NCBI GenBank assembly: GCA_019322375.1
Contig: JAHWIP010000076.1
Location: forward strand, 1 to 32,000
Direction: 5' to 3'
Length of the DNA: 32,000 bases
Origin: Candidatus Woesearchaeota archaeon
GTDB taxonomy: Archaea > Nanobdellota > Nanobdellia > Woesearchaeales > SM23-78
In this document: positions 588-32,000 of the stretch, piece after piece
Numbering within the stretch: position 1 is the stretch's first letter
Layout: each line of letters starts with the position of its first letter
Notes under the pieces: model-generated
Databases searched by the model: none
What the model saw: the letters and a program-made list of their open reading frames with translations, nothing else
What the model was told of the DNA's origin: nothing
Made by a program: the position numbers and the translations under genes

Positions 588-2384
588 ATGAAGAAATTTT
601 ACTTTTTTTTGGTCATTGGTTTTGTGTTGGTAGCCTTCTATCCCCAGAACAACCAGATTTTCCCTATGAATTCTGCTGAAAATCCCAAGCTGATCTCTAA
701 CATCATGTCTCCTTATTCTCAGCTCCAATTAAAGACTCTCAGACAAAGACAGATGCTGAGAAGAAATCTTCGTCCTATTCTAAAATCTCAAAACAATGAA
801 AGCCAGCACTGGATAAGAACATACGGCGGCACGCGAGATGATTTAATCTACTCATTAGAGCAGACACTTGATGGTGGGTTCATTACTGGAGGATTGACCT
901 GGAGTTTTGGAGCTGGTGAAACTGATGTGGTCATAACCAAGCTGACTTCAGAGGGACTTGTTGAATGGCAGGAGACTTATGGCAGATCTAGTCATGATGG
1001 TTTGTATTATGTCTCTGTTCATCAAACACCAGACGGCGGGTACATTGTTGCAACTGATACTTTTCCAGAAGGCTCGGGATGGCTTGACATTTGGGTATTC
1101 AAACTTGATTCTCAAGGCAACATCAAGTGGCAGAAAACCTGCGGGAATCCTGAAAGTAGTGAAACTGCGTTTGGAGGTATACAGCTGACAAATGACGGAG
1201 GCTTTGTTATGACAGGATATACAGCTACTTCTTGGGCTGGACACGACATATTCGTTGTTAAGCTTGATTCTCAAGGCAAGGATGAATGGCAAAAGGCTTA
1301 CCCTGGACCTAATGTCGAAAAAGGAAACTCTATCCATCAAACACCTGATGAAGGATACATTGTTCTTAGTAGCATAATATCCCCAGATGAAGATGCAGTC
1401 GCTACTTTTGGTCTTCTAAAACTGTACCCGAACGGTGAGATTGAGTGGCAAGAAACATACCCTGGATACGAGAGAAGCGAATCTTTTTATTTTTACGGGT
1501 ATGTTGAACCAACAAGTGATGGTGGTTATTTTGTTGCAGACTTCACAGACAAAGAAGAATTAGGTCAATACGACATGTGGTTTCTTAAGCTTGATTCCAA
1601 AGGCAATCCCTGGTGGCAGAAGAAAATCGGAGGTCTGGAAAGAGATGTCATAGGAAGAAGAATGCAGCAGACAAATGATGGCAAGTACATTGTAGCTGGC
1701 TATACTGCATCATTTGGAGATAGTTTCTTGGATGCTTTGATTTTCAAGCTTGGTTCTAAAGGCAATGTTGAGTGGGCAAAAACATATGGAATGCCAGGCA
1801 CAACAGAAGTTGCTTTTGACATTCAGGAGACAAACGACCTTGGATACATTGTTGGAGGATACAGAAATGTCGACAGTTTTGATCTGATGGCTATGAAGAT
1901 TGATCAGAATGGTAATATAGGTGCTGGTTGTCCTTTCATAACTGATGTAAATCTCACAGTCACAGATACTTATGCTGTTCCTATGAACACTGCTTTCACA
2001 TCTCAAGACAAGGACTATCCTGTTCAAAACACAAATGTGACACCTGAAAGCATTACCATGGATTCAAGGCTGTTGTACTGGGATTTAAACCAACCACCAA
2101 TCGACATAACTGTAACAACAGAGGAGAACTACAGTGCATTCCGAAAAGAGACCTACAATATCATTCGCTGGAACCCGAACCCATATAACACTAACTTTAC
2201 AGTCACAGAGTATCGAGTTTACCGGGTATTCTTTGGCGAGTACGAGTTGTTAGAAACTGTTCCATATGGTACTTTTGAATTCTGGGACAGACTTGTAGAC
2301 GAAACTCCAAATTACAAGTATGCTGTGACAACGGTTGTTGATGGCAAGGAAAGTCCGCTACCTGAACCAGTAGGCGGCAATTAA
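588..2384 (+). CDS. Secreted beta-propeller-repeat protein with a C-terminal Fn3/Ig-like domain
   Basis: The N-terminus is hydrophobic (MKKFYFFLVIGFVLVAF). About 8 repeats of ~50-60 aa share the pattern Q/xTxDGGY/FIvxG...D..vvKLDSxGNxxWQKTYG, which is SBBP/PQQ-like beta-propeller repeat style. The C-terminal segment YNIIRWNPNPYNTNFTVTEYRVYRV...YKYAVTTVVDGKESP looks fibronectin-III-like. GAGGAGG lies upstream of the ATG. Confidence 0.7.
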   Translation: MKKFYFFLVIGFVLVAFYPQNNQIFPMNSAENPKLISNIMSPYSQLQLKTLRQRQMLRRNLRPILKSQNNESQHWIRTYGGTRDDLIYSLEQTLDGGFITGGLTWSFGAGETDVVITKLTSEGLVEWQETYGRSSHDGLYYVSVHQTPDGGYIVATDTFPEGSGWLDIWVFKLDSQGNIKWQKTCGNPESSETAFGGIQLTNDGGFVMTGYTATSWAGHDIFVVKLDSQGKDEWQKAYPGPNVEKGNSIHQTPDEGYIVLSSIISPDEDAVATFGLLKLYPNGEIEWQETYPGYERSESFYFYGYVEPTSDGGYFVADFTDKEELGQYDMWFLKLDSKGNPWWQKKIGGLERDVIGRRMQQTNDGKYIVAGYTASFGDSFLDALIFKLGSKGNVEWAKTYGMPGTTEVAFDIQETNDLGYIVGGYRNVDSFDLMAMKIDQNGNIGAGCPFITDVNLTVTDTYAVPMNTAFTSQDKDYPVQNTNVTPESITMDSRLLYWDLNQPPIDITVTTEENYSAFRKETYNIIRWNPNPYNTNFTVTEYRVYRVFFGEYELLETVPYGTFEFWDRLVDETPNYKYAVTTVVDGKESPLPEPVGGN

Positions 2385-2397
2385 AGGAGGTAAAAAA

Positions 2398-2958
2398 ATG
2401 AAAAAATCAATCTTGTTCCTTTTGGCACTGCTCCTGGTGTCTAGTTTCTCCTTCCAATGCTGGGCTGGAACCTTCAAAATAGGGGCATCTGTGAACTACT
2501 ACCTCATCTCAGATCCTATCTTCAAAGAGCTCTACTCAAGCGGGGGCATGATGTTTGGTGGCTTTCTGAGCTTCTCGTATAAAATGTTCGAGCTAAGGAC
2601 TGAGTTCAACACTTTCCAGATGAATGGCAACATGAGCCTGACAGAAGAAGAAATCAAGTTCTCAATGACCCCGATTGTTGTAGGACTCCGGGTTTTTCTG
2701 CCTAACAAAACTGTTTCCCCATACCTGGGAGGTGGTCTTACTTACTGCTCTTACAAGGAGGAGCTTCCAGCACGTTTTGAGCCAGTGTCAGAATCAGTCA
2801 CTGGTTTTCATTTTGAATCTGGCAGTTACTTCATCTTGGCAAAGGGACTTCTCCTGGATCTCAATGTGCGGTATTCGAATTTAAATGCAGAATCCTTTGC
2901 AGATGATGTAAAGATTGGAGGAATCCGGGCAGGCCTTGGGGTTGGGTACAGATTCTGA
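2398..2958 (+). CDS. Small outer-membrane-protein-type beta-barrel protein (OMP_b-brl-like, 8-strand size class)
   Basis: It has a signal peptide (MKKSILFLLALLLVSSFSFQCWA) and alternating amphipathic strands. The C-terminus is GLGVGYRF, with a terminal aromatic Phe like the beta-signal of bacterial OMPs. A strong SD (AAAGGAGG) lies 8 nt upstream of the ATG. Confidence 0.6.
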   Translation: MKKSILFLLALLLVSSFSFQCWAGTFKIGASVNYYLISDPIFKELYSSGGMMFGGFLSFSYKMFELRTEFNTFQMNGNMSLTEEEIKFSMTPIVVGLRVFLPNKTVSPYLGGGLTYCSYKEELPARFEPVSESVTGFHFESGSYFILAKGLLLDLNVRYSNLNAESFADDVKIGGIRAGLGVGYRF

Positions 2959-3970: not shown

Positions 3971-5236
3971 TCAAAAGAAATCTCCCAACCCAGTCTGGCT
4001 CTTCTTAACAAGCTCGGGCTTCTCTTCTTTAACAACTTCTTTTCCATTAAGCAAAGGAACCCCATACTCTCCGTCAAAACCAGGCTTAATCTCAAGCTTG
4101 CCTTGCCTGTTTAACATGATGATATCAACAATCTCTTTATCAGCCACTTTTAATAATTCTTCTTTAGAAACATTCAACAAGATATCAAACTCATTCTTTC
4201 CTGCTTTTAATATTTCATAGTATTTTGCCCAAACCTTTTTAGTAGCCATGCTGCTTTTAAGAACAAGAGAAAGAATCTCATGAAGTGGGATTATTCTTTT
4301 AAAAGGCTTAGCATCTTTAGGTTTACCTTGTTTTCTGTCAGCAAGTTCATCAACTCTGTTTAACACCCCAATAGTCAGAGGTCTTTTACAAACAGGACAA
4401 ATACCATTATGCTTTTTACTTTCTTCAGGGCTGAAAGATACATTGCAATTTCTGTGCCCGTCAAAATGATACTTGCCATAATTAGGGTCAACTTCAATTG
4501 TTTCAACCAAGCCTTCTCCTGTGCGCAAAGCCTTTATCAGGTTAGCATAAGTCAATTCCTTAAACTCAAAAACAGTTGATTCTCTGCCAATCCTCCAGGG
4601 CCAGAAGCTATGGCTGTCAGAAAAACTAACTAAATTATAATTATCAAGTTTTGAAAGCCTCCAATTCATCTCAGGGTCACTGCTAAGACCTGTTTCAAGA
4701 GCATGGATGTGTTTTGCTTGTTCACCAAAACATTCTTCAACACTGTCAAAACCACTCTTACTGCCAAACAAACTGAACCAAGGAGTCCATATATGCGCAG
4801 GAATAATCTCAATATCCCTGGATATCTTCATCATCTCCTCAACAAACTCTGGGCAGGGAATATTAAACATAGGCCTGCCATCATAGTCAACTCTTCCCTT
4901 AGAAAGCAAATACTTTGTAATCTTATCAACTATTTCAAAACTAGGAGCAAGCACAACAAGATGGATTCTTCTGCCCTTGTACTTATGAGTATAGATTAAG
5001 CTTATCTCATTCTGCAAAACAAAAGGAAAACCAGATTCTGTTTTAAGAATACCACTCCCATCTTCTTTTAACTCTTTTTTCAGCTCCTTAATCCATTCAG
5101 GATGGCAGAAATCAGATGTGCCAAGCAAACCCAAACCCTTGGTCTTAGCCCATTTCTCAAGGTTCTGAATGTTTAACTGGGCGCTACAAGCCCTTGAATA
5201 CCTGGAATGCAAGTGTAAGTCAGAGATTATTCTCAT
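3971..5236 (-). CDS. endQ: Endonuclease Q-family PHP-domain nuclease with a Zn-ribbon
   Basis: The N-terminal PHP motif is DLHLHSRYSRACS. PAHIWTPWFSLFG, ALETGLSSDPEMN, SFSDSHS..RIGRE and GKYHFDGH follow. Then comes CPVCKRPLTIGVLNRVDELADR and a C-terminal GFDGEYG. The length (~420 aa) and motif order match archaeal EndoQ as I recall it. Confidence 0.75.
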   Translation of the reverse strand: MRIISDLHLHSRYSRACSAQLNIQNLEKWAKTKGLGLLGTSDFCHPEWIKELKKELKEDGSGILKTESGFPFVLQNEISLIYTHKYKGRRIHLVVLAPSFEIVDKITKYLLSKGRVDYDGRPMFNIPCPEFVEEMMKISRDIEIIPAHIWTPWFSLFGSKSGFDSVEECFGEQAKHIHALETGLSSDPEMNWRLSKLDNYNLVSFSDSHSFWPWRIGRESTVFEFKELTYANLIKALRTGEGLVETIEVDPNYGKYHFDGHRNCNVSFSPEESKKHNGICPVCKRPLTIGVLNRVDELADRKQGKPKDAKPFKRIIPLHEILSLVLKSSMATKKVWAKYYEILKAGKNEFDILLNVSKEELLKVADKEIVDIIMLNRQGKLEIKPGFDGEYGVPLLNGKEVVKEEKPELVKKSQTGLGDFF

Positions 5237-5273: not shown

Positions 5274-7544
5274 TTAACCCTTAACCAACTCTCCTAACAA
5301 AAACTTCATCTCTACTATCATGTCCAGCTTTACTTCTTGAGGCACAAAGGTTGCTAAGGGCAGTATTTCTGCTTTTTTATAAAAACCCATGAAGAGTATT
5401 TTCATTAATAAAGGTATCTTTGATGCTCTGAGCCTCATGTTAAATATATTATTATCATATTCTTCTGGCAAGCCCAGTAAGGCTGCATATATTCTTTGTA
5501 TTCTTTCATATAATTCTTTATCATTAATTTCAGGTCTTTTGCTTGTATCATTTAACTCATTAATAAAGTTTTTAGCAACTTCTTCACTAATAGCAGGACT
5601 CTTTTTTCTTGACACCCTAATCTTTCTAAAGAGCTTGTTAGCTCCTACAAGGAATGCAAAGGTGGAGTTGTGTTCATACAATCCTCTTGCTTTCTCAGGA
5701 TGGGTTAGTAAGTAAAAGAAGTAGCTGATTAAAAGAAAGGGTATTAATCCTAGTATAATAAATAAGATTATAAACCCAGCATAATAAGCCTGGAAATAAT
5801 CACTAAAATTACATTTTCTGCAATTGCCACCGCAGTCAGCAAGTCTTTCATCACCATTCTTAACTCCATCATCACATCTTGGACAGGGCCTGCAAAGCCC
5901 TCCGCAATCAACACCCATCTCTCCGCCGTTCTGTACGCCATCAGAGCAAGTACCGCAACGCTTTGTACAAGGGCCACCGCAATCAACACCTTCCTCTTCC
6001 TGGTTCTTTATGCCATCTTCACAACTAGGAAAAGTGCATATAAGATACTCGCATCTTAAGCTCTCACAATCCTTGTTTTTTAAACAGCTCTGATTACCAG
6101 CACACCCAGCGCAAACACCTCCGCAATCAACATCACTTTCATCCTGGTTCTTAACACCATCAGTACAACTAGGACAGATTTCAAGGCATGGGCCCCCGCA
6201 ATCAACACCTTCTTCTCCCTGGTTCTGAATACTGTCATTACAGGTTGGACAAGGGTCGCATGGACCCCCGCAATCAACACCTTCTTCAATGCCGTTCTTT
6301 AAGCCATCAGAGCAAGTAGCATTGTACTCACATATTCTTATTTCATCTGGCTTGCTCCTGTTATCACCGCAATTAGCTATGTCTGTACAGTTCCTGGTCA
6401 TAAACCCTCCTGGCATACAAGGACCCCAGTCAGAGCAGTTCCAGTCAGGCATGCATCCTATTTCCTCGTCTTCGCATGGACCGCAATCAAAAGGGCAATT
6501 AGAGCAGTCTTCTACTGCACTGCAAACATAATCACCGCAGAAATCTGTTCTAGAAACATTCTTAAGAGTGTTAAATTTATCAGAACTAACAACATCCACT
6601 TTCACAAAGTTGCTTTCAACACTCTTATTCATAATATCATAAGCTGTGAAAACAAAATAAGCATATCCACTGGTATTAAGAGCAGGGTCATAGGTTACAA
6701 AGCCGGTTTTGTCAATGCTCGCACTAATATTTGCATAAGCTGTTCCTTTGATTTCAAAAGCAGGATTGACTTGTCTGTAAGAGAAACTCAGCATTCCGCC
6801 GTCAGGGTCATAAAAATAGTCATTAAGATTATAAGCACCTGTGGCTGTGTTCTGGAAAACCATGAAGTTAGGAACAGGGAATAGCAATGTTGGTGCCCGG
6901 TTTACCTTTGACACCTGCACATACCATGTTTTTATATCTGAAAGGTTATGAGAATCAGTCACTCTTGCACTAATATTGTGAACCCCTGATAATTCATATC
7001 CTGGCCTGAAAATATAATTAGTCTTATTAAATGATTCATTTATTAATCCAGAATCAAGAAGCCACTCATAGATAAGAGTTTCATTATCATCCTTGTCAAT
7101 TGCTTTTACCCTGAAATAAACAGATTGTGTCTGGTTAATCTGAACAGAAGAGTTCTTTGGCTCAAAAGAAGTAATCTTAGGTTTGGCAAAGATTTTAAAA
7201 GTTACTACCAGGGTGCCTGCGCATGACTCCTTAACAGCTATCACCCCTATTTTTGAAACTCCAACATCATCACTGCTAGGCTCAAATCTAAGAACACCAC
7301 CACTACTAATACTTATGCCTGTTAGTCTCCTGTCAAACAAGGCATAAGAATAAAATATTCCCTGCTCATCCATGTTAGTAAGATTAAAATCATGCACAAA
7401 GAGTTCGCCTTCTCCTATCTCAAAATAATTAATAGGATTAATTCTAGGCGTATCAGTAGAGGTGCAGACACCAGAGGAAAAGCCTATATTTATTAATAAG
7501 AAAAATAATACTAATACAACTACCATAGAGGCTTTTTTGTTCAC
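5274..7544 (-). CDS. Type-I membrane surface protein: signal peptide, PKD/cadherin-like Ig domains, Cys-rich modules, one TM helix, and a ~140-aa cytoplasmic domain
   Basis: It has a GTG start and a signal peptide (MNKKASMVVVLVLFFLLINIGFSSG). A PKD-like segment is IYEWLLDSG...GVHNISARVTDSHN...WYVQV, and a cadherin-like segment is YNLNDYFYDPDGGMLSFSY. Residues 336-578 are extremely Cys-rich. The TM helix is aa ~586-614 (YYAGFIILFIILGLIPFLLISYFFYLL). There are many N-x-S/T sequons. Confidence 0.8.
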   Translation of the reverse strand: MNKKASMVVVLVLFFLLINIGFSSGVCTSTDTPRINPINYFEIGEGELFVHDFNLTNMDEQGIFYSYALFDRRLTGISISSGGVLRFEPSSDDVGVSKIGVIAVKESCAGTLVVTFKIFAKPKITSFEPKNSSVQINQTQSVYFRVKAIDKDDNETLIYEWLLDSGLINESFNKTNYIFRPGYELSGVHNISARVTDSHNLSDIKTWYVQVSKVNRAPTLLFPVPNFMVFQNTATGAYNLNDYFYDPDGGMLSFSYRQVNPAFEIKGTAYANISASIDKTGFVTYDPALNTSGYAYFVFTAYDIMNKSVESNFVKVDVVSSDKFNTLKNVSRTDFCGDYVCSAVEDCSNCPFDCGPCEDEEIGCMPDWNCSDWGPCMPGGFMTRNCTDIANCGDNRSKPDEIRICEYNATCSDGLKNGIEEGVDCGGPCDPCPTCNDSIQNQGEEGVDCGGPCLEICPSCTDGVKNQDESDVDCGGVCAGCAGNQSCLKNKDCESLRCEYLICTFPSCEDGIKNQEEEGVDCGGPCTKRCGTCSDGVQNGGEMGVDCGGLCRPCPRCDDGVKNGDERLADCGGNCRKCNFSDYFQAYYAGFIILFIILGLIPFLLISYFFYLLTHPEKARGLYEHNSTFAFLVGANKLFRKIRVSRKKSPAISEEVAKNFINELNDTSKRPEINDKELYERIQRIYAALLGLPEEYDNNIFNMRLRASKIPLLMKILFMGFYKKAEILPLATFVPQEVKLDMIVEMKFLLGELVKG
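5811..6314 (-). repeat. Six tandem ~25-aa four-Cys modules, C-x-D-G/S-x-x-N-x-x-E-x-x-x-D-C-G-G-x-C-x-x-C, coding and inside the 5274-7544 CDS
   Basis: The protein copies are CSDGLKNGIEEGVDCGGPCDPC, CNDSIQNQGEEGVDCGGPCLEIC, CTDGVKNQDESDVDCGGVCAGC, CEDGIKNQEEEGVDCGGPCTKRC, CSDGVQNGGEMGVDCGGLCRPC and CDDGVKNGDERLADCGGNCRKC. At DNA level the recurring plus-strand core is CC(N)CCGCAATCAACACC. Confidence 0.85.
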
Positions 7545-26908: not shown

Positions 26909-28387
26909 TTATTCTTTGTGCACCAGGTTTACATTGTTAGAGTATGTTACTCTTTCTTTTCCTTTTCTGGCGTCAAATTTGGCTTTGGCGCTTGGAAGCC
27001 TTATGCCTCCTACTAGCTGGAGTTTTGACTTTACCCTGTAGGTTATTATTCTTTCCTCATAAGGCTCCAGCACGTCCAGCTCCCATTTGGCTACTGTGCC
27101 TCTTCTGCTCTTGCCAATGTTGACAGGCTCCATTGAGCCCAGCCTTGTTTTCTTCTCTATCTCTGCTATCCTGGGCACAGTATCCACCACTCTTAAGTTG
27201 GTTATGGGCCTTCTTGACCTGTTCTTCAGGTAAAGACTTATCTTTATTTCACTCACTCCTTCCTTTGTTCTCCCAAGAGGCTCTGCGCTTTTAATTATAA
27301 CTATAGGGCTTCTCAGAGTATAGTAGAGCACTACCCCTACTATTATCAAGATGATTATGAGCACTAATAACCTGTAATTAGTAATGATTTCTATGTCCAG
27401 GTGTTCCTCTGAGCTGAGCTCCTGTCTTATAACATAATAAGTTTTGCCGTCTGTTCCTCCCTCTTTTACAGGGCTTGGTGAGAAGCTGGTGAATAATCTC
27501 TTGAAAAAGTTAATTCTAAAACTCTTCTCAGCCACTCCTTTCTCATTCCCTTTATTATAAATAGTTATGCTTTCCCGGGTTCTGAACAAGAAGCTCTTCT
27601 TGGTGCTTGTTTCCTGCATATCAAGATAGCCTTGTACTTCATACTGGGTGGAAGACTCTGCTATTTTCTTATCCTCAAAGAACAAGGTAAGGGTCAGGGT
27701 TTTTGTGCCTGCCTCTACAAAAGGGTCTACTTCAAATAATATCTCATTAAACTTCTCTTCCAGGGGCAACAGGTGGGTGGTGTATTCTTTATATAATATT
27801 TCCCCGCTAATCACTACTTTTAATCCGTCAAGGTCTCTCAGGTTCCTGTTCCTAAGGTTAAGCCTCACAGCCACTTTTTGTCTTGGGTCAACCACCTGGT
27901 CAATATAAATAGTAGGAGTTACTGTGGGCACATACACTCCTGGTTTTTGGTCAGGAGAAACAACATAAACAGCGAATTTTTCTTTTTCCTCAAAGTGAAA
28001 ACCTGTTTTTTCTGATTTTATTTTTATTGGAATGATATATGTTAGTCCTTCTCTTAAAAGTGGTTTTGGTCTTAGCTCTACTACGAATTCTGCATCTTGC
28101 CCTGCTGTCACCACACCTGATCCTGGTTCTGCATTAACAATCCAGTTAACATCCCTTGTGCTGATTGTAAAGAAATCATCAAAGTCTGCTGTGTTCCTAA
28201 TAATAAGCTCAAACCTTGCTATTTCCTGCTTGGTAATAGTATTGTTAATAGGAGTAACAAAATATGTGAATGCCAGTGCCTGGGAAGCTGTTATTAGAAT
28301 AAGAACTAATGCAATGGTTAATGTGAATAAGACTCTTAATTCGAGCTTTTTGTTCATGGGACCTCGCCTCCTGCCCTTTATAACCAT
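26909..28387 (-). CDS. Membrane protein with CARDB/NEW3/DUF11-like beta-sandwich domains on both sides of a single TM helix
   Basis: The probable true start is the second ATG (28357), which is preceded by AGGAGG: MNKKLELRVLFTLTIALVLILITASQALA (signal peptide). NEW3/CARDB-like text is FELIIRNTADFDDFFTISTRDVNWIVNAEPGSGVVTAGQDAEFVVELRP. The TM helix is LLVLIIILIIVGVVLYYTL. The C-terminal DUF11-like text is LRVVDTVPRIAEIE...GTVAKWELDVLEPYEERIITYRVKS. Confidence 0.65.
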   Translation of the reverse strand: MVIKGRRRGPMNKKLELRVLFTLTIALVLILITASQALAFTYFVTPINNTITKQEIARFELIIRNTADFDDFFTISTRDVNWIVNAEPGSGVVTAGQDAEFVVELRPKPLLREGLTYIIPIKIKSEKTGFHFEEKEKFAVYVVSPDQKPGVYVPTVTPTIYIDQVVDPRQKVAVRLNLRNRNLRDLDGLKVVISGEILYKEYTTHLLPLEEKFNEILFEVDPFVEAGTKTLTLTLFFEDKKIAESSTQYEVQGYLDMQETSTKKSFLFRTRESITIYNKGNEKGVAEKSFRINFFKRLFTSFSPSPVKEGGTDGKTYYVIRQELSSEEHLDIEIITNYRLLVLIIILIIVGVVLYYTLRSPIVIIKSAEPLGRTKEGVSEIKISLYLKNRSRRPITNLRVVDTVPRIAEIEKKTRLGSMEPVNIGKSRRGTVAKWELDVLEPYEERIITYRVKSKLQLVGGIRLPSAKAKFDARKGKERVTYSNNVNLVHKE

Positions 28388-28445: not shown

Positions 28446-29233
28446 CTATTCCTGGTTAATGACATGTTCAATGCCAGCAAGTTCAGGTTTTTCCATTGGC
28501 TTGTCTAGAACTAATTGGTGTTCCTTATCTGGCTTTGGAATTTCTTTTGCTTGATTGGAATTGTTCGGACTTATAACATACATCATCACAGTGGCTGCTA
28601 AGCCTGCAACAGGGTATGCTATGGCTAGGGTTTTTTTGAATCTCTTTGATTTTTGCTTTATTCTTTTTGGCAGAGTTCCTGTGTCCTCTACTCCTGTTAA
28701 TTCTTTATAGATATCTATGGTCAATAGCACAGGCACTCCTATTGCTGTTCCTATGGTTGTCATCATGCCTGCATTCAAAAGGATTTTATCTATTTCTTTT
28801 ACTCCTGCAAGAGCATACAGACCTATTCTGATTGGAAACACTATCCCTGCAATAAAACCTATGTCAAATAATACTTTTTTCCTAGTGGCGAGTCTTTAGT
28901 CACTCCGAACTTTTGCCTTACTCTTTCTCTGCCTTCCATTCCAAGACCTATAGATGCATAGGTAAATGCTGTTGTGAGCATTCTTGATTTTATTGATTCA
29001 AAATCTGTTAATCTGCCTGCTGTTGTTTCTATCATTGCATAGAGTGGGTTGAATATGGTTGCTGATGCTATGGTTGAAACAGTGTCTTTTTTAAATCTAG
29101 AACTATTTTTTATGTTTTGATATGTTCCTTTTGGATTGCAGATTATTTCATCTAATTGCTTGCATGCTAGAGAATAATCTTGATATATTCTGTTCGTGAT
29201 AGTTTCATATCTTTGCTTTAATCCCATAGTCAC
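28446..29233 (-). pseudogene. AlaE-like (L-alanine exporter family-like) membrane protein split by a frameshift at an A6 run
   Basis: ORFs 28859..29233 and 28446..28841 are adjacent on the same strand. The downstream frame is open back to 28897, overlapping the upstream ORF. A -1 shift within GGAAAAAAG (plus-strand T-run 28875-28880) joins ...FGVTKDSPLGKK to VLFDIGFIAGIVFPIRIGLYALAG... The two halves resemble, from memory, the two halves of E. coli AlaE (R...D......iE...g.......SR / D.....f..P.y..l...G). Confidence 0.4.
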
Positions 29234-29281: not shown

Positions 29282-29400
29282 TGGGGCTGCGAGGATTTGA
29301 ACCCCGGTTTCCAGCTGTCCGTTTCATTGATAAGCATGAGTTGGCATGCCATTCTCACGAACCCCGAGCTGGGGTGATGGCCAAACTACACTACAGCCCC
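29282..29400 (-). tRNA. Intron-containing tRNA, most parsimoniously tRNA-Pro (GGG by canonical 37/38 splicing). The isotype is uncertain.
   Basis: The minus strand reads GGGGCTG-TA-GTGT-AGTTTGGCCA-TCAC-C-CCAGC-TCGGGG[45 nt]A-GCTGG-AAAC-CGGGG-TTCAAAT-CCTCG-CAGCCCC-A. The stems are good and the T-loop is canonical. G1-G3:C70-C72 plus A73 and G35/G36 fit archaeal tRNA-Pro identity rules. However, the spliced loop would be UCGGGGA, with C rather than U at position 33. Confidence 0.55.
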
Positions 29401-29439: not shown

Positions 29440-30684
29440 TTATTTTTTCTTTTTCTTAGGTTTCTTCTTTTTTGCTTTCTTTTTCTTCTTCTTTGTTATC
29501 TTTTTCTTTTTCTTAGGTTTCTTCTTTGTTATTTTCTTTACTTTCTTTTTCTTTGCTGCTTTCTTCTTTGCCTTTCTCTTGAGCTTCTTTTTTAATTTTT
29601 TCTTTGCAGCTTTTTTCTTAGCTGTTTTTTTCTTTGCAGTCTTTTTCTTAGTCTTTTTTACTTTTTTCTTTACCTTGGTCATGGCAGCCTTCTTAAGCTT
29701 GGTTATGTATTCTTTTTCTTCTTCTTTTCTGCTCTTGACTTTTATGATTATGGCAATTATCAGTATAACTATCAATGCTATTAGCAGGAATTGTACAATG
29801 ATTGCTGCCCTGCTTTTTTCAAGTTGAGAAGCAGGTTGCTGCTGCTCTGGCTCAGCCTCTTCTGGCTCTTCTAGAACAGGGGTTATAACCACATTTACCT
29901 TCCTAATAACAGGCGCTCTTGCTGCTTCTCCTAATAAATTGCTTTCCTGCTTGGTGCTCACTGTGAAGTATGCTTTTTTGTAAGAAATATAGTTAAGGGT
30001 TAACTCAATATCTTCCTGCCCGTCATTGTTAAAATCAAGGTTAATTGAGGCTTTCTCATGCAGGTTCATTCTCTTGTCACCAGGGGTTATCATCAATCCC
30101 ACCATGCCTATTCCTTTGCTATAATCCTGTATAATCCTCATAATATTAATCTCATAGGTGTTCTCTCCTTTTCTTGCTCTGATAACATCATTTGGCATCA
30201 CTTTGTCTATGTCTAGTTCAAGGTCATCTTTGATTTCAAATTCATAGATATAGCCTGCTCTGTTTGGGAACTTGGTTATTGTCAGCTCTGATTCCTCTTC
30301 CTCCCCTATTATTAGGCGTCTGGTTGGAGAAGTAATCTTTATATTATCTGTGTCTATGCATTCTATGCTCCAGATATAGGTGCCTGGCACCAGGTCTGTT
30401 CTTATCCTTGTATCATACGGCGATAGTAATCCAGTAGCAGTCTTTGCTATCTGGTCATTCAGGATTAACGAGCACTCTTTCATATCAAGCTCAGAAGGAT
30501 ACTTGAACATGAAATATATGCTTGTTGCTTTTGTCTGGGTGTCATGCGTTGGGGCTACAAGGGTTATGCTGGCAGCAGGGCTGATAACAAAGCCTGTGAT
30601 TGAAGCATTGTTAGCAATAACTAGGTATATTAAGGCAAGGGCAAACAATCCAAAGACTATTTCTAGTTTTGTAACCCGCTTCAT
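29440..30684 (-). CDS. Type-I membrane protein: two Ig-like ectodomains, an acidic linker, one TM helix, and a 100-aa polylysine cytoplasmic tail
   Basis: The signal/anchor is LEIVFGLFALALIYLVIA. The ectodomain is paralogous to the upstream gene. The acidic linker is EEPEEAEPEQQQ and the TM helix is AAIIVQFLLIALIVILIIAIII. In the last 85 residues, 57 are Lys (KKTAKKKTAKKKAAKKKLKKK...KKKKPKKKKK). The start overlaps the upstream gene's stop by 4 nt. Confidence 0.8.
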   Translation of the reverse strand: MKRVTKLEIVFGLFALALIYLVIANNASITGFVISPAASITLVAPTHDTQTKATSIYFMFKYPSELDMKECSLILNDQIAKTATGLLSPYDTRIRTDLVPGTYIWSIECIDTDNIKITSPTRRLIIGEEEESELTITKFPNRAGYIYEFEIKDDLELDIDKVMPNDVIRARKGENTYEINIMRIIQDYSKGIGMVGLMITPGDKRMNLHEKASINLDFNNDGQEDIELTLNYISYKKAYFTVSTKQESNLLGEAARAPVIRKVNVVITPVLEEPEEAEPEQQQPASQLEKSRAAIIVQFLLIALIVILIIAIIIKVKSRKEEEKEYITKLKKAAMTKVKKKVKKTKKKTAKKKTAKKKAAKKKLKKKLKRKAKKKAAKKKKVKKITKKKPKKKKKITKKKKKKAKKKKPKKKKK

Positions 30685-32000
30685 TTTTTCATCTTCCTCC
30701 CTGTGCTCTTAATAATATCAAAGCTCTCATCAAAAACAGGCTGGGCTTCTTCAGGCTCAGGACTTTCTTCTGGCTTAACCATTTTTGGTTTAAGCTCCTT
30801 TTTTTTAACCTTTGGTTCTCTGGCTTTTTTCTCTTTGGTCTTTTTTTGTTTAACCGGTTGTTTAACCACTTTTTTCTCTGGTTTTCTCCTAGAGGGAGAC
30901 TCAAAAATCTCTGATTTTTGTTTTCTCCCAGAAGGAGACTCAAAAATCTCTGATTTTTGTTTTCTCCCAGAAGGAGACTCAAAAATCTCTGATTTTTGTT
31001 TTCTCCCAGAAGGAGACTCAAAAATCTCTGATTTTTGTTGTTTCTCTTCTTTGGTAATTTGTAATTCAGTAACTTTTTTCTTTTTTCTTTTTGCAACCAA
31101 CAGGATAATCACAAGAATTATGATTAATATAATTGCTATTATGAGTATTATTAACCAGGTTTTGCTCTTTTTTTCTGGCTTTGGAGAGGGTGTTACGACT
31201 GTTTCTTCTTCTACCTCAGGCTCTTCTACTTCTTCTTCAGGCTCTTGCTCTGCGAGCAAGTCCTCTCCCTCTTCAACTTCCTCTATAACTTCTGGTTCTT
31301 CTTCTGTTTCCGGCTCTTCTTCAGGCACTGGTTCTGCTTCTTCTTCCTCTTCTTCTATTGCTTCTTCAACAACTGTATCTGGATAAGGAGTCACAACAAA
31401 GTAAGCATCAACACTTCTGTCAACCTCTGTAAGAGAGAGCTCAACATCCACGGTCTCATCATCATCAAAGTCAAAGCTGAGGGTGCCTGGTACCAGCATC
31501 CTGTGCTTAACACCTGTACTTCTGTCCCTTACCTCTACAAAGCTGGTGTTAATAGCAACCCCCATCTTTATAATATCAAGGTAATAAGTTTTGCCGGAAA
31601 GTTTTATCTGGATATCCTCCCCTCCTTTAAGTGCAGGAAGCTCTACAGGGCTCTGACCAGGCTCTATTGTGAACACATAACCTCTTAAACCAGAGGAATA
31701 ATAAAATGTTTCATAGCTTTCTTTTATTTCTTCACCAGTATTAACACTAAGGGTTCTTGTCTCAGATAGTATCTCATTAAAATCTATGTCATAGCACTTC
31801 ATAAACCAGTCGTGCTTACCTGCTTCTAGCTCCACTGTTATTTTATTATCATTTATGCGGAAAAGCGTGTTCCTGACTTTTTTTACCTCATCATCTACTA
31901 TTAATGAGCAGTTAAGAATGTCCACGTACTGGTCAAAGCTGTAGATAAAGTCCTGGGTATAAGTTATGATTACAGAGCCGTCAGCAGGCAATTTAAGTTC
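30681..32000 (-). CDS. Paralogous type-I membrane protein (5' end outside the window): Ig-like ectodomains, a long polyacidic stalk, a TM helix, and a basic tail with a 13-aa x4 tandem repeat
   Basis: The frame is open to the window end. The domains align by eye with the 29440-30684 protein (C.L..D......L..G...W...C.D; ...F.F.DD...D.EL.L.......AYF.V). The acidic stalk EEAIEEEEEEAEPVPEEEPETEEEPEVIEEVEEGEDLLAEQEPEEEVEEPEVEEE is at ~31203-31370. The TM helix is TWLIILIIAIILIIILVIILLVA. The basic tail is KRKKKK...(KSEIFESPSGRKQ)x4...KKTKEKKAREPKVKKKELKPK. Confidence 0.8.
   Translation of the reverse strand, partial: ELKLPADGSVIITYTQDFIYSFDQYVDILNCSLIVDDEVKKVRNTLFRINDNKITVELEAGKHDWFMKCYDIDFNEILSETRTLSVNTGEEIKESYETFYYSSGLRGYVFTIEPGQSPVELPALKGGEDIQIKLSGKTYYLDIIKMGVAINTSFVEVRDRSTGVKHRMLVPGTLSFDFDDDETVDVELSLTEVDRSVDAYFVVTPYPDTVVEEAIEEEEEEAEPVPEEEPETEEEPEVIEEVEEGEDLLAEQEPEEEVEEPEVEEETVVTPSPKPEKKSKTWLIILIIAIILIIILVIILLVAKRKKKKVTELQITKEEKQQKSEIFESPSGRKQKSEIFESPSGRKQKSEIFESPSGRKQKSEIFESPSRRKPEKKVVKQPVKQKKTKEKKAREPKVKKKELKPKMVKPEESPEPEEAQPVFDESFDIIKSTGRKMKK
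30881..31042 (-). repeat. Perfect 39-nt in-frame tandem repeat (about 3.8 copies plus a degenerate flank)
   Basis: The plus-strand unit is GGAGACTCAAAAATCTCTGATTTTTGTTTTCTCCCAGAA. Identical copies sit at 30895-30933, 30934-30972 and 30973-31011. A fourth copy starts at 31012 and diverges after ~29 nt. A partial diverged copy lies at 30881-30894. The unit encodes KSEIFESPSGRKQ. Confidence 0.95.

What the first reader, a model, noticed from the sequence alone, without database searches (positions are those of the whole stretch)
29440..32000. Operonic pair of paralogous surface proteins with acidic stalks outside and extreme polybasic tails inside: a candidate novel envelope module
Two overlapping (ATGA) genes encode proteins with the same plan: two Ig-like beta-sandwich ectodomains, a Glu/Pro-rich stalk (about 55 residues, mostly Glu, in the upstream paralog), one TM helix, then a cytoplasmic tail. 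One tail has 57 Lys in its last 85 residues (AKKK/TAKKK repeats resembling histone H1 or AlgP tails). The other tail is Lys-rich with a 13-aa repeat. I know of no characterised archaeal family with this architecture. A polylysine tail anchored at the inner face of the membrane could tether nucleic acid (nucleoid or ribosomes) or acidic lipids to a surface receptor. The neighbouring CARDB-like membrane protein (26909-28387) shares the theme of domains on both sides of one TM helix. In an episymbiotic small archaeon this could be a host-contact module; the functional proposal is speculation.
Basis: partly seen in the sequence, partly recalled or inferred. Interest (0 to 1): 0.7.

Follow-up and report, generated by a model that had tools for sequence, protein, structure and literature searches.

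The report
Paired archaeal surface proteins, polylysine tails
Two overlapping genes of a Woesearchaeota (DPANN) archaeon encode a conserved, uncharacterised pair of related surface proteins whose inner tails are extremely lysine-rich; the architecture is real, but what the tails bind is still unknown.

Summary
Gene A (29440-30684, minus strand) and gene B (30681 to the window edge, N-terminus missing) overlap by ATGA. They are true but distant paralogues: hhalign gives 99.9% probability, E 1.6e-36, over 211 columns.

Each protein has two beta-sandwich ectodomains, a disordered stalk (strongly acidic in B), one transmembrane helix and a basic tail. A's tail has 57 Lys in its last 85 residues. 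B's tail carries a recent 39-bp x4 tandem repeat.

The pair is a family limited to Woesearchaeota/Nanoarchaeota-type metagenome genomes. It has no Pfam, NCBIfam, PADLOC or PDB match. Only domain 1 is shared, as a repeat module of giant surface proteins.

Conserved features include:
- polybasic A tails of 33-180 aa;
- a juxtamembrane EEKxY(I/V)xxLK motif in A;
- a C-terminal FDIIKSTGRR motif in B;
- ATGA coupling in 10 of 12 related loci.

In related loci the neighbourhood is an SMC/Rad50-like zinc-hook ATPase, then B, then A, then the 492-aa protein. The lysine codons avoid long A runs (p about 0.001), so the tail appears to be selected coding sequence.

The proposed function, a heterodimeric surface complex whose tails bind polyanions or a partner, is inference. 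The finding is a new variant of a known kind, of moderate interest.

The parts
29440..30684 (-). Gene A, 414 aa: A-type member of the family (NCBI KY348_06465, hypothetical protein)
   Evidence: ORF. A 100% identical protein, P0001. 21 homologues aligned.
30595..30684 (-). A aa 1-30: N-terminal hydrophobic helix (signal anchor or signal peptide) with invariant E8 and G12, followed by the conserved NASITGF motif
   Evidence: Hydropathy. Invariant columns. Helix 3-30 in the AF2 model.
30307..30579 (-). A ectodomain 1 (aa 36-126): Ig-like beta-sandwich with invariant C71 and C109. Homologous to a repeat module of giant surface proteins.
   Evidence: pLDDT above 90. Profile positions 1-90 hit up to 35 copies per giant protein. 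Those proteins carry Pfam Big_13, Big_3_3 and MtxA_IG-like.
29956..30285 (-). A ectodomain 2 (aa 134-243): family-specific beta-sandwich with a DxNxDGxxD loop (D217, N219, D221, G222, D225; nt 30010-30036)
   Evidence: Model. Invariant D217, D221 and D225. Full two-domain matches occur only in small 245-487 aa proteins.
29809..29955 (-). A stalk (aa 244-292): disordered, rich in E/Q/P/A, net charge -3
   Evidence: pLDDT below 40. Composition.
29734..29808 (-). A C-terminal transmembrane helix (aa 293-317)
   Evidence: Hydropathy up to 3.5. Helix.
29443..29733 (-). A cytoplasmic tail (aa 318-414). It has a conserved juxtamembrane motif, RKEEEKEYITKLKK (nt 29689-29730), then xAKKK-type polylysine: 60 K in 97 residues, net +58.
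   Evidence: Motif conservation (E323, Y326, L330). Longest A run is 7, against a mean of 11.2 in synonymous shuffles.
30681..32000 (-). Gene B, 439 aa visible: B-type paralogue. It is open to the window edge, so the N-terminus and signal peptide are missing.
31386..32000 (-). B ectodomains 1 and 2 (visible aa 1-205), homologous to A aa 36-248. They include the Cys pair and a DFDDDETVD loop.
   Evidence: hhalign 99.9%. Joint alignment.
31161..31385 (-). B stalk (aa 206-280): Glu/Pro-rich, net -32. The acidic core is at nt 31188-31373.
   Evidence: B-type stalks carry net -5 to -27 in homologues.
31092..31160 (-). B transmembrane helix (aa 281-303), preceded by KKSK
   Evidence: Hydropathy up to 4.1.
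30684..31091 (-). B cytoplasmic tail (aa 304-439), net +20. It contains the 39-bp x4.1 tandem repeat (30881-31039). It ends in the conserved motif FDIIKSTGRKMKK (30684-30722).
   Evidence: The C-terminal motif is conserved (invariant I429, I430, S432).
26909..28387 (-). 492-aa syntenic neighbour: N-terminal helix, three beta-sandwich domains, a transmembrane helix, then a fourth beta-sandwich on the other side of the membrane
   Evidence: AF2 mean pLDDT 88.8. Only generic Ig-like Foldseek hits. Lies downstream of the B-A pair in 12 of 12 loci that reach far enough.

Best explanation
A and B are a translationally coupled pair of paralogous membrane-anchored surface proteins, found only in a clade of Woesearchaeota-type DPANN archaea. 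They most likely assemble 1:1 into a heterodimer.

Each chain displays an Ig-like domain and a family-specific beta-sandwich outside the cell. The sandwich probably binds calcium through a DxDxDG-type loop. A disordered stalk holds the two domains away from the membrane; in B it is a polyanionic Glu/Pro brush.

One transmembrane helix leads to a cytoplasmic tail. A's tail is a short conserved juxtamembrane motif followed by a variable histone-H1-like polylysine stretch, which would clamp electrostatically onto a polyanion at the inner face. My preferred ligand is nucleoid DNA or RNA. B's tail is a flexible basic linker ending in a conserved 13-20 residue peptide (WP..EKFDIIKSTGRR), which looks like a docking motif for a cytoplasmic partner.

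The pair would therefore link the cell surface physically to the cell interior.

Shown: gene structure, paralogy, fold, family conservation, synteny, and the compositional and codon evidence. Inferred: topology, heterodimer formation, calcium binding, the tail ligand and any partner.
For: - Structure and paralogy.
- Topology: B homologues carry a classic n-h-c signal peptide ending in AxA. The Cys pair in domain 1 is invariant, and the domain is homologous to repeat modules of giant surface proteins. The positive-inside rule applies, with net +58 and +20 after the transmembrane helix.
- Coupling: the ATGA overlap is kept in 10 of 12 related loci. B sits directly upstream of A in every locus with coverage.
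- Tail under selection:
  - every full-length A-type homologue keeps a tail of 33-180 aa with net +7 to +82;
  - the juxtamembrane E/Y/L motif is conserved;
  - long A runs are avoided, longest 7 against 11.2 expected, with 0.12% of synonymous shuffles as low;
  - polybasic tails are specific to this family, 13 of 13 in 223 kb;
  - of 122 giant proteins sharing domain 1, only 9 end in a transmembrane-like segment, and none of the nine has a polylysine tail.
- B's C-terminal motif has invariant I-I-x-S.
- An SMC/Rad50-superfamily ATPase with a CPTC zinc hook lies upstream on the same strand in 15 of 15 loci with coverage. ASRP relatives of such ATPases organise chromosomes (PMC9389158).
Against: - Nothing tests binding.
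- Beyond the juxtamembrane motif the tails cannot be aligned. Their length varies more than fivefold.
- The DNA shows slippage-type repeats, which fits weak constraint on the exact sequence.
- A and B tail lengths do not co-vary (Spearman 0.34, p 0.29, n = 12).
- The ATPase cannot be assigned. Its Rad50, ASRP and LmuB model scores are similar, and the NCBIfam Rad50 and ASRP scores are below their curated cut-offs. It also lies outside this window.
- The synteny may reflect shared ancestry within one clade. Unrelated genes are inserted between the ATPase and B in three loci.
- Distant homologues of the 492-aa protein occur without A or B nearby.
- Heterodimer formation rests on gene coupling alone.
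Confidence: 0.4

Rival explanations
1. The tails have no specific ligand. A modest cluster of positive charge fixes the N-out/C-in topology and anchors the helix, and it may lie on anionic lipids. The extreme length in this genome is nearly neutral low-complexity expansion by replication slippage in an AT-rich genome. On this view the biology is all in the ectodomains, as a surface coat, adhesin or receptor.
For: - Tail length ranges from 33 to 180 aa and the sequence cannot be aligned.
- TRF finds nested 15-66 bp repeats in A's tail, and a 98% identical 39-bp x4 repeat in B that homologues lack.
- Both tails in this genome are the longest among the 12 paired loci.
- The shortest family tails, about 33-40 aa with net +7 to +12, are evidently sufficient.
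Against: - Even the shortest tails are several times longer and more charged than a topogenic signal needs.
- Giant surface proteins of the same organisms that end in a transmembrane helix have mostly non-lysine-rich tails of net +7 to +13, and one is net negative.
- Avoidance of long A runs shows selection on the coding sequence.
- Conserved linear motifs in both tails point to specific interactions.
Confidence: 0.3
2. The pair is a stalked component or membrane anchor of the cell-surface layer (S-layer or pseudo-periplasmic spacer) of these archaea. The acidic stalk sets the spacing. The tails hold the anchor in the membrane or contact the cytoskeleton or division machinery.
For: - The plan of ectodomain, flexible stalk, C-terminal transmembrane helix and basic residues is that of known archaeal S-layer glycoprotein anchors (general knowledge).
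- Domain 1 is shared with giant surface proteins.
- An NAS sequon is conserved after the first helix.
- There is a conserved, apparently single, locus per genome fragment.
Against: - There is no PGF-CTERM or other archaeosortase signal, and no S-layer model hit.
- The proteins are small (350-440 aa).
- No abundance data exist.
- This reading does not explain why the tails are so long or carry conserved motifs.
Confidence: 0.15
3. The ATPase-B-A cluster is a Lamassu-like or other SMC-type anti-virus defence system, with the membrane proteins acting as sensors or effectors.
For: - The upstream ATPase matches PADLOC LmuB model PDLC03859 over its full length (E 2e-39).
- HEPN/nucleotidyltransferase, Fic and integrase genes lie a few kb away in two loci.
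Against: - No LmuA, LmuC or other defence model matches A, B, the 492-aa protein or the upstream radical-SAM-like protein.
- The locus is present in the same order in all 16 related loci, at 41-83% identity, like vertically inherited core genes. Defence islands are typically patchy.
- The ATPase scores equally well against ASRP and Rad50 models.
Confidence: 0.05

Closest known systems
Ig-like repeat modules (Pfam Big_13 / Big_3_3 / MtxA_IG-like type) of giant archaeal and bacterial surface proteins
   Same: Ectodomain 1 of A and B is homologous to these modules. The family profile hits 4330 proteins, and single giant proteins carry up to 35 copies. The two-Cys pattern (C...W.xxC) is the same.
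   Different: A and B themselves score below every Pfam threshold. They carry a single copy plus a family-specific second domain, a stalk, a transmembrane helix and a long tail. Only 9 of 122 giant proteins end in a transmembrane-like segment, and none of the nine has a polylysine tail.
C-terminal anchors of archaeal S-layer glycoproteins, and PGF-CTERM/archaeosortase substrates
   Same: The order of parts is the same: extracellular domains, a flexible low-complexity stalk, one C-terminal transmembrane helix, then basic residues inside.
   Different: There is no PGF, PEF or VPXXXP motif before the helix and no NCBIfam hit. The tails are 33-180 residues with conserved motifs, not a handful of Arg/Lys. 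Nothing suggests cleavage.
Histone H1 C-terminal domain and bacterial H1-like Lys/Ala/Pro tails (AlgP, chlamydial Hc1, mycobacterial HupB C-terminus)
   Same: The composition and short periodicity of A's tail match: xAKKK, TAKKK and KPKKK units, 62% Lys with Ala/Thr/Pro spacers, net +58. Tails of this kind bind and condense DNA (general knowledge).
   Different: Those proteins are soluble nucleoid proteins. Here the tail is fused to a transmembrane surface protein. The similarity is compositional only, so homology can be neither shown nor excluded.
Two-chain Ig-superfamily receptors such as the alpha-beta T-cell receptor (structural analogy only)
   Same: There are two paralogous chains. Each has two beta-sandwich domains, a connecting stalk, one transmembrane helix and a cytoplasmic tail. 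Weak Foldseek hits to TCR chains exist. Charged residues lie at the transmembrane boundaries: E or Q in 17 of 20 A-type sequences and K-S-K in 10 of 13 B-type sequences (alignments).
   Different: There is no sequence relationship and the fold matches are generic (8-19% identity). Heterodimer formation is inferred from gene coupling alone.
Membrane proteins with polybasic cytoplasmic tails that tether cellular polyanions (YidC/Oxa1 C-tails binding ribosomes; lamin B receptor binding chromatin)
   Same: The principle is the same: a membrane-anchored basic tail holds a nucleic-acid-containing structure at the membrane (general knowledge).
   Different: The folds and families are unrelated. None of these proteins has Ig-like ectodomains. 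No binding data exist for A or B.

Membership tests
Ig-like / Fn3-like beta-sandwich fold (E-set type) | Two-sheet Greek-key beta-sandwich of about 90-110 residues | tested here: met
   The AF2 model of A has two all-beta domains with pLDDT above 90. Foldseek probability is 1.0 to CbhA Fn3-like modules, the chitinase A N-domain and TCR chains, TM-score to target 0.74-0.80 for single domains. B aligns to both domains at 99.9%.
Pfam Big_13 / Big_3_3 / MtxA_IG-like bacterial Ig-like domains | Score above the Pfam gathering threshold for the domain model | tested here: inconclusive
   A direct hmmscan of A and B gives no such hit even at E <= 1. A profile of the A/B ectodomains strongly hits giant proteins, and those proteins carry these Pfam domains. 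This is a superfamily-level relationship for domain 1 only.
Archaeosortase substrates (PGF-CTERM, PEF-CTERM, VPXXXP-CTERM) | A signature motif just before the C-terminal transmembrane helix, then only a short basic cluster ending the protein | tested here: not met
   The sequences before the helices are ...QLEKSRAAIIVQF... (A) and ...PKPEKKSKTWLII... (B), with no signature motif. The tails are 97 and 136 aa. No NCBIfam model hits at E <= 0.01.
Class III (type IV pilin-like) signal peptides of archaeal pilins and archaellins | A short basic N-terminus ending in [KR]-[GA], with cleavage before a hydrophobic stretch | tested here: not met
   A-type N-termini read M[KR][KR]xxKxE[IV]xFG. Gly or Ala is absent from the -1 position in 20 of 21 sequences. 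B-type proteins have ordinary Sec signal peptides ending in AxA. This was tested by inspection only.
Histone H1-like / AlgP-like lysine-rich DNA-binding tails | A long Lys/Ala/Pro(Thr)-rich low-complexity segment with very high net positive charge, and DNA binding | not testable with these tools
   The composition criterion is met: 60 K, 10 A, 7 T in 97 residues, net +58. DNA binding cannot be tested in silico here, and no sequence model defines the class.
DxDxDG-type calcium-binding loop | D-x-[DN]-x-[DN]-G with a further acidic ligand a few residues on, located in a loop | tested here: met
   A has D217-F-N-N-D221-G-Q-E-D225 in the loop between strands 213-216 and 226-234. D217, D221 and D225 are invariant across A and B types. 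B-type sequences have K or E in place of G. Calcium binding itself was not tested.
   The window protein has no such hit at E <= 1. Four distant homologues carry precomputed PF01345 and/or PF07705 hits. The AF2 model has four beta-sandwich domains, three before and one after the second helix. Foldseek matches are generic ASH/MSP/integrin-type domains.
ASRP (archaea-specific SMC-related protein) or Rad50, for the upstream ATPase in related loci | Walker A and Walker B heads separated by a coiled coil with a CxxC zinc hook, and a score above the NCBIfam cut-off | tested here: inconclusive
   A CPTC hook is seen. The ASRP model matches over its full length, E 7.6e-42, but at 143.7 bits against a cut-off of 300. 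Rad50 models match only the head domains and are also below cut-off. The PDB best hits are Rad50 heads. No Mre11 lies adjacent; a radical-SAM-like gene does.
Lamassu defence system | LmuB SMC-like ATPase together with the LmuA effector (and LmuC) | tested here: not met
   An LmuB model matches the ATPase (E 2e-39). No PADLOC model matches A, B, the 492-aa protein or the upstream gene.

The most novel reading that the evidence does not exclude
The B-A heterodimer is a transmembrane tether between nucleoid and envelope, working with the adjacent zinc-hook SMC/Rad50-like ATPase. A's H1-like tail would bind chromosomal DNA at the inner face. B's conserved C-terminal peptide would dock the ATPase, or the cytoplasmic Ig-like domain of the 492-aa protein. 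The Ig-like ectodomains would report or fix the position of a surface contact such as a host-attachment site. Chromosome organisation or DNA traffic in these tiny episymbiotic archaea would then be coupled physically to the cell surface.
Probability: 0.12. Interest if true: 0.8.

Novelty: new variant of a known kind. Interest (0 to 1): 0.45.

Why it matters
DPANN archaea such as Woesearchaeota are mostly uncultured, and the proteins that build their envelopes and host contacts are almost all unannotated. This work defines a conserved two-gene family with a clear domain plan, diagnostic motifs and a fixed genomic neighbourhood. That gives a concrete target for structure prediction of complexes, metaproteomics and biochemistry.

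If the histone-H1-like tail really binds nucleic acid at the membrane, it would be a rare prokaryotic example of a surface receptor wired directly to the nucleoid. If it does not, the family still shows how far low-complexity tails can expand while staying under codon-level selection.

Tried and rejected
Searches and tests that gave nothing or were negative:
- Default BLASTP of A against B gave nothing (E = 18). The cause is composition adjustment; paralogy was then shown by other means.
- Pfam, NCBIfam and PADLOC scans of A and B returned only spurious hits driven by the transmembrane helix or low complexity.
- A PDB sequence search with the family profile found nothing below E 0.5.
- Foldseek against PDB and BFVD gave only generic Ig/Fn3 matches.
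- Two literature searches for lysine-rich tails or surface proteins in DPANN/Woesearchaeota found nothing relevant.
- I tried to recover the missing upstream part of this contig. Exact look-ups of A and of the NCBI form of the 492-aa protein gave only a 1965-bp Logan contig, or nothing. An exact 27-mer scan of metagenome contigs found nothing.
- The tails of A and B do not co-vary in length, and B's stalk charge does not co-vary with A's tail charge.

Ideas considered and rejected:
- The polylysine tail as a generic anchor of surface proteins in these organisms.
- The 492-aa protein as an obligate partner. Its distant homologues lack A/B neighbours.
- Pilin-like signal peptides and archaeosortase sorting signals, by inspection and by NCBIfam.


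Full report
**What is in the sequence**

The minus strand of 29440-32000 holds two ORFs. Gene A (29440-30684) encodes 414 aa. Gene B ends at 30681 and is open all the way to base 32000. The TTG start at 31991 printed by the ORF listing is an artefact, because no in-frame stop lies upstream within the window. B is therefore cut by the window edge. Its homologues show that about 25-40 residues are missing, including a classic Sec signal peptide.

B's TGA stop and A's ATG start share the tetranucleotide ATGA at 30681-30684.

- A has 57 Lys in its last 85 residues. The full tail (aa 318-414) has 60 Lys and a net charge of +58.
- B's stalk has 33 Glu and 7 Pro within 62 residues. The whole stalk has a net charge of -32.
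- B's tail contains KQKSEIFESPSGR four times. This repeat is encoded by a 39-bp tandem repeat of 4.1 copies at 98% identity (30881-31039).

**Are the two proteins paralogues?**

Default BLASTP sees nothing (E = 18), because composition correction penalises these biased sequences. Without that correction the ectodomains align at 25% identity over 198 residues (E 1.6e-15).

Comparing a 21-sequence A-family profile with a 14-sequence B-family profile gives 99.9% probability, E 1.6e-36, over 211 columns (A 36-248, B 1-209). The paralogy is real and covers both ectodomains. The stalks, transmembrane helices and tails share only their layout.

**Fold**

AlphaFold2 with the family alignment models A as follows:
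- an N-terminal helix (aa 3-30);
- two beta-sandwiches (aa 41-126 and 134-243, pLDDT above 90);
- a disordered stalk (aa 248-289, pLDDT below 40);
- a long helix that begins with the transmembrane segment.

Foldseek against PDB and against viral models returns only generic Fn3/Ig-like matches at 8-19% identity: CbhA Fn3-like modules, the chitinase A N-domain, TCR chains and SoxYZ. "Two Ig-like beta-sandwich ectodomains" is therefore correct, and no characterised family is hit.

**Family and distribution**

Gene A is 100% identical to NCBI KY348_06465 of a Candidatus Woesearchaeota genome assembled from a metagenome (MAG). The rest of the window is plainly archaeal, with an rpoH-B''-B'-A'-A''-L30e-NusA-S12 gene order and an ELP3-like gene.

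A-type homologues (21 clusters) and B-type homologues (7 clusters) all come from Woesearchaeota/Nanoarchaeota-type MAGs. All are "hypothetical" and none has a Pfam domain.

An exhaustive profile search with the ectodomain alignment found 4330 proteins. The matches divide clearly:
- Profile positions 1-90 (domain 1, with its two invariant Cys) form a repeat module. It occurs up to 35 times in giant 2-7.7 thousand-residue surface proteins that carry Pfam Big_13, Big_3_3 and MtxA_IG-like domains.
- Full two-domain matches occur only in small proteins of 245-487 aa, which are the A/B family.

Pfam, NCBIfam, PADLOC and a PDB sequence search give nothing specific for A or B themselves.

**Conserved features beyond the fold**

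A-type proteins share:
- an N-terminal helix with invariant E8 and G12;
- an NASITGF motif just after that helix;
- C71 and C109;
- a D217-x-N-x-D221-G-x-x-D225 loop of the DxDxDG calcium-binding type;
- an E or Q at the outer end of the second helix (17 of 20 sequences);
- a juxtamembrane motif (R/K)xxEEKxY(I/V)xxLK;
- a Lys-rich tail.

B-type proteins share:
- a cleavable-looking signal peptide;
- the same Cys pair and acidic loop;
- a strongly acidic or Pro-rich stalk (net -5 to -27);
- Lys residues just outside the helix (10 of 13 sequences);
- a mixed basic tail;
- a well conserved extreme C-terminus, (W)P..(E)KF(D/E)IIKS(T)G(R/K)(R/K).

A-type tails range from 33 to 180 residues and from net +7 to +82. 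P0131, with 82 Lys in 180 residues, exceeds the window's protein.

**Is the polylysine tail meaningful or just slippage?**

Three controls argue that it is a selected property of this family:
1. In 223 kb of the window plus related loci, 64 ORFs have a transmembrane-like segment. All 13 with a tail of at least 30 residues, at least 35% K+R and net charge of at least +10 after the last segment are A-type (12) or B-type (1).
2. Of 122 giant proteins that share domain 1, only 9 end with a transmembrane-like segment. None of those has a polylysine tail. Their tails run 14-110 residues with net charge of at most +13, and the basic residues cluster next to the helix.
3. The 60 Lys codons of the tail are arranged so that the longest A run is 7. 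When the same AAA/AAG codons are permuted, the mean longest run is 11.2, and only 0.12% of permutations are as short as 7. This is the pattern expected if slippery poly(A) tracts are selected against in a translated sequence.

On the other side, the tails cannot be aligned, their length varies more than fivefold, and nested repeats are visible in the DNA. The B repeat is a very recent duplication that homologues lack. The exact sequence and length therefore look weakly constrained. A and B tail lengths do not co-vary (rho 0.34, p 0.29, n = 12).

**Topology**

No dedicated predictor was available. The evidence I could assemble is consistent:
- B-type signal peptides have an n-h-c layout ending in AxA.
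- Domain 1 has an invariant Cys pair placed on the two strands (68-75 and 101-111) where Ig-like domains usually carry a disulfide.
- Domain 1 is homologous to modules of secreted giant proteins.
- The charge distribution across the helix is extreme, acidic before it and +58 or +20 after it.

Together these put the ectodomains outside and the tails inside.

**Genomic context**

Across 16 distinct related loci:
- B lies directly upstream of A in every locus with coverage. The ATGA overlap is kept in 10 of 12. One locus has a 4-nt gap, and in one B is frameshifted.
- A 689-aa SMC/Rad50-superfamily ATPase with a CPTC zinc hook lies upstream on the same strand in 15 of 15 loci with coverage. It is usually 60-100 bp from B, with unrelated genes inserted in three loci.
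- A homologue of the window's 492-aa protein (26909-28387) lies downstream on the same strand in 12 of 12 loci that extend far enough. Zero to five variable genes lie between, often a small K+ channel.

The ATPase matches three kinds of model:

| Model | Result |
|---|---|
| NCBIfam ASRP | full length, E 7.6e-42, but 143.7 bits against a cut-off of 300 |
| NCBIfam Rad50 | head domains only, below cut-off |
| PADLOC LmuB | full length, E 2e-39 |

No Mre11 is adjacent, so the ATPase cannot be assigned. ASRPs include coalescin and Sph proteins and are linked to chromosome organisation (PMC9389158).

In this window the ATPase position lies beyond the edge. A is followed by an oligo-T stretch and an intron-containing tRNA gene (29282-29400). 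B-A is therefore its own unit here, and the 124-aa, 131-aa and 492-aa ORFs are neighbours, not operon members.

The 492-aa protein models confidently (mean pLDDT 88.8) as a helix, three beta-sandwiches, a transmembrane helix and a fourth beta-sandwich. Its structural matches are generic only. Homologues of this protein at 32-41% identity in more distant lineages have no A/B genes nearby. That family is therefore broader than A/B and independent of it.

**Interpretation**

The best-supported reading is a heterodimeric, membrane-anchored surface complex. Translational coupling of two paralogues with complementary features favours 1:1 assembly. Those features are one signal anchor against one cleaved signal peptide, E/Q against K at the outer helix boundary, and different tail motifs.

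The ectodomains are ordinary adhesin- or receptor-type modules held on flexible stalks. The unusual part is inside the cell. A carries a histone-H1-like polycation that would bind any nearby polyanion. B carries a conserved terminal peptide that looks like a docking motif.

I prefer nucleic acid, meaning the nucleoid in a very small cell, as A's ligand, for three reasons:
- The K/A/T/P composition and short periodicity resemble DNA-condensing tails more than short lipid-binding polybasic patches.
- The tail is far longer than topology requires.
- The constant neighbour is an SMC/Rad50-like ATPase.

This step is inference, and I give the whole model 0.4.

The main rival (0.3) is that only a modest positive cluster is functional, for topology or lipid contact, and that the extreme length here is tolerated slippage. 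A surface-coat anchor role (0.15) is compatible with either reading. A Lamassu-like defence role (0.05) is unlikely, because no partner models match and the locus behaves like a vertically inherited core locus.

**Novelty and score**

The family is uncharacterised and unannotated. Its general plan of Ig-like ectodomains, stalk, C-terminal helix and basic inside is a known kind of archaeal surface protein. Domain 1 belongs to a very common module.

The new elements are the paired paralogue arrangement, the long conserved polybasic and motif-bearing cytoplasmic tails, and the fixed neighbourhood. I rate it a new variant of a known kind, with interest 0.45. It is a solid, well-delimited target for DPANN cell biology. 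It has no functional evidence yet, and a real chance remains that the striking tail length is largely neutral.

Noticed in passing
window 29282-29400 (-): An intron-containing tRNA gene lies between gene A and the 124-aa ORF. Rfam tRNA scores 44.6 bits, with a 51-nt insertion in the anticodon-loop region. Default ARAGORN missed it. With introns allowed, ARAGORN calls tRNA-Val(CAC) with a 47-nt intron at a non-canonical position. A Pro(CGG) reading with a canonical 37/38 intron also seems possible by eye.
   Followed up: partly
window 2398-2958 (+): A 186-aa ORF matches Pfam OMP_b-brl, the bacterial outer-membrane beta-barrel domain, above the gathering threshold (E 9.7e-11, 42.6 bits against 28.7). 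This is unexpected on an archaeal contig. Local GC is a little higher, 0.436 against about 0.39. It could be horizontal transfer, a misassembly, or a true archaeal beta-barrel.
   Followed up: no
window 26909-28387 (-): The 492-aa membrane protein has four confidently modelled beta-sandwich domains, three before and one after an internal transmembrane helix. Its family has about 60 clusters and no annotation. Homology reaches down to 25% identity and extends beyond the lineages that have A/B.
   Followed up: yes
L002-L015 and L020-L023, upstream of the B homologue (e.g. L012 4721-6787): A 689-aa SMC/Rad50-superfamily ATPase has a CPTC zinc hook and no adjacent Mre11. In at least three loci (L004, L012, L015) it is preceded by a 400-413 aa radical-SAM-like gene. 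It scores similarly against ASRP, Rad50 and LmuB models, and the NCBIfam Rad50 and ASRP scores are below their curated cut-offs.
   Followed up: partly
window 30595-30684 (-), aa 1-33 of A: The A-type N-terminal helix carries an invariant Glu (E8) and Gly (G12). The near-invariant motif N-A-S-I-T-G-F-V follows it and contains an N-glycosylation sequon. This is too conserved for a plain signal peptide. B-type proteins have an ordinary AxA signal peptide instead.
   Followed up: partly
window 28859-29233 (-) and L010 9005-9292: The 124-aa ORF downstream of A has a 40% identical homologue in the same position after A in locus L010. It has no Pfam, NCBIfam or PADLOC match.
   Followed up: no
window 588-2384 (+), 3971-5236 (-), 5274-7544 (-): Three large ORFs (598, 421 and 756 aa) have no Pfam family, or only a weak Big_9 hit. 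They may be further unannotated surface proteins of this archaeon.
   Followed up: no
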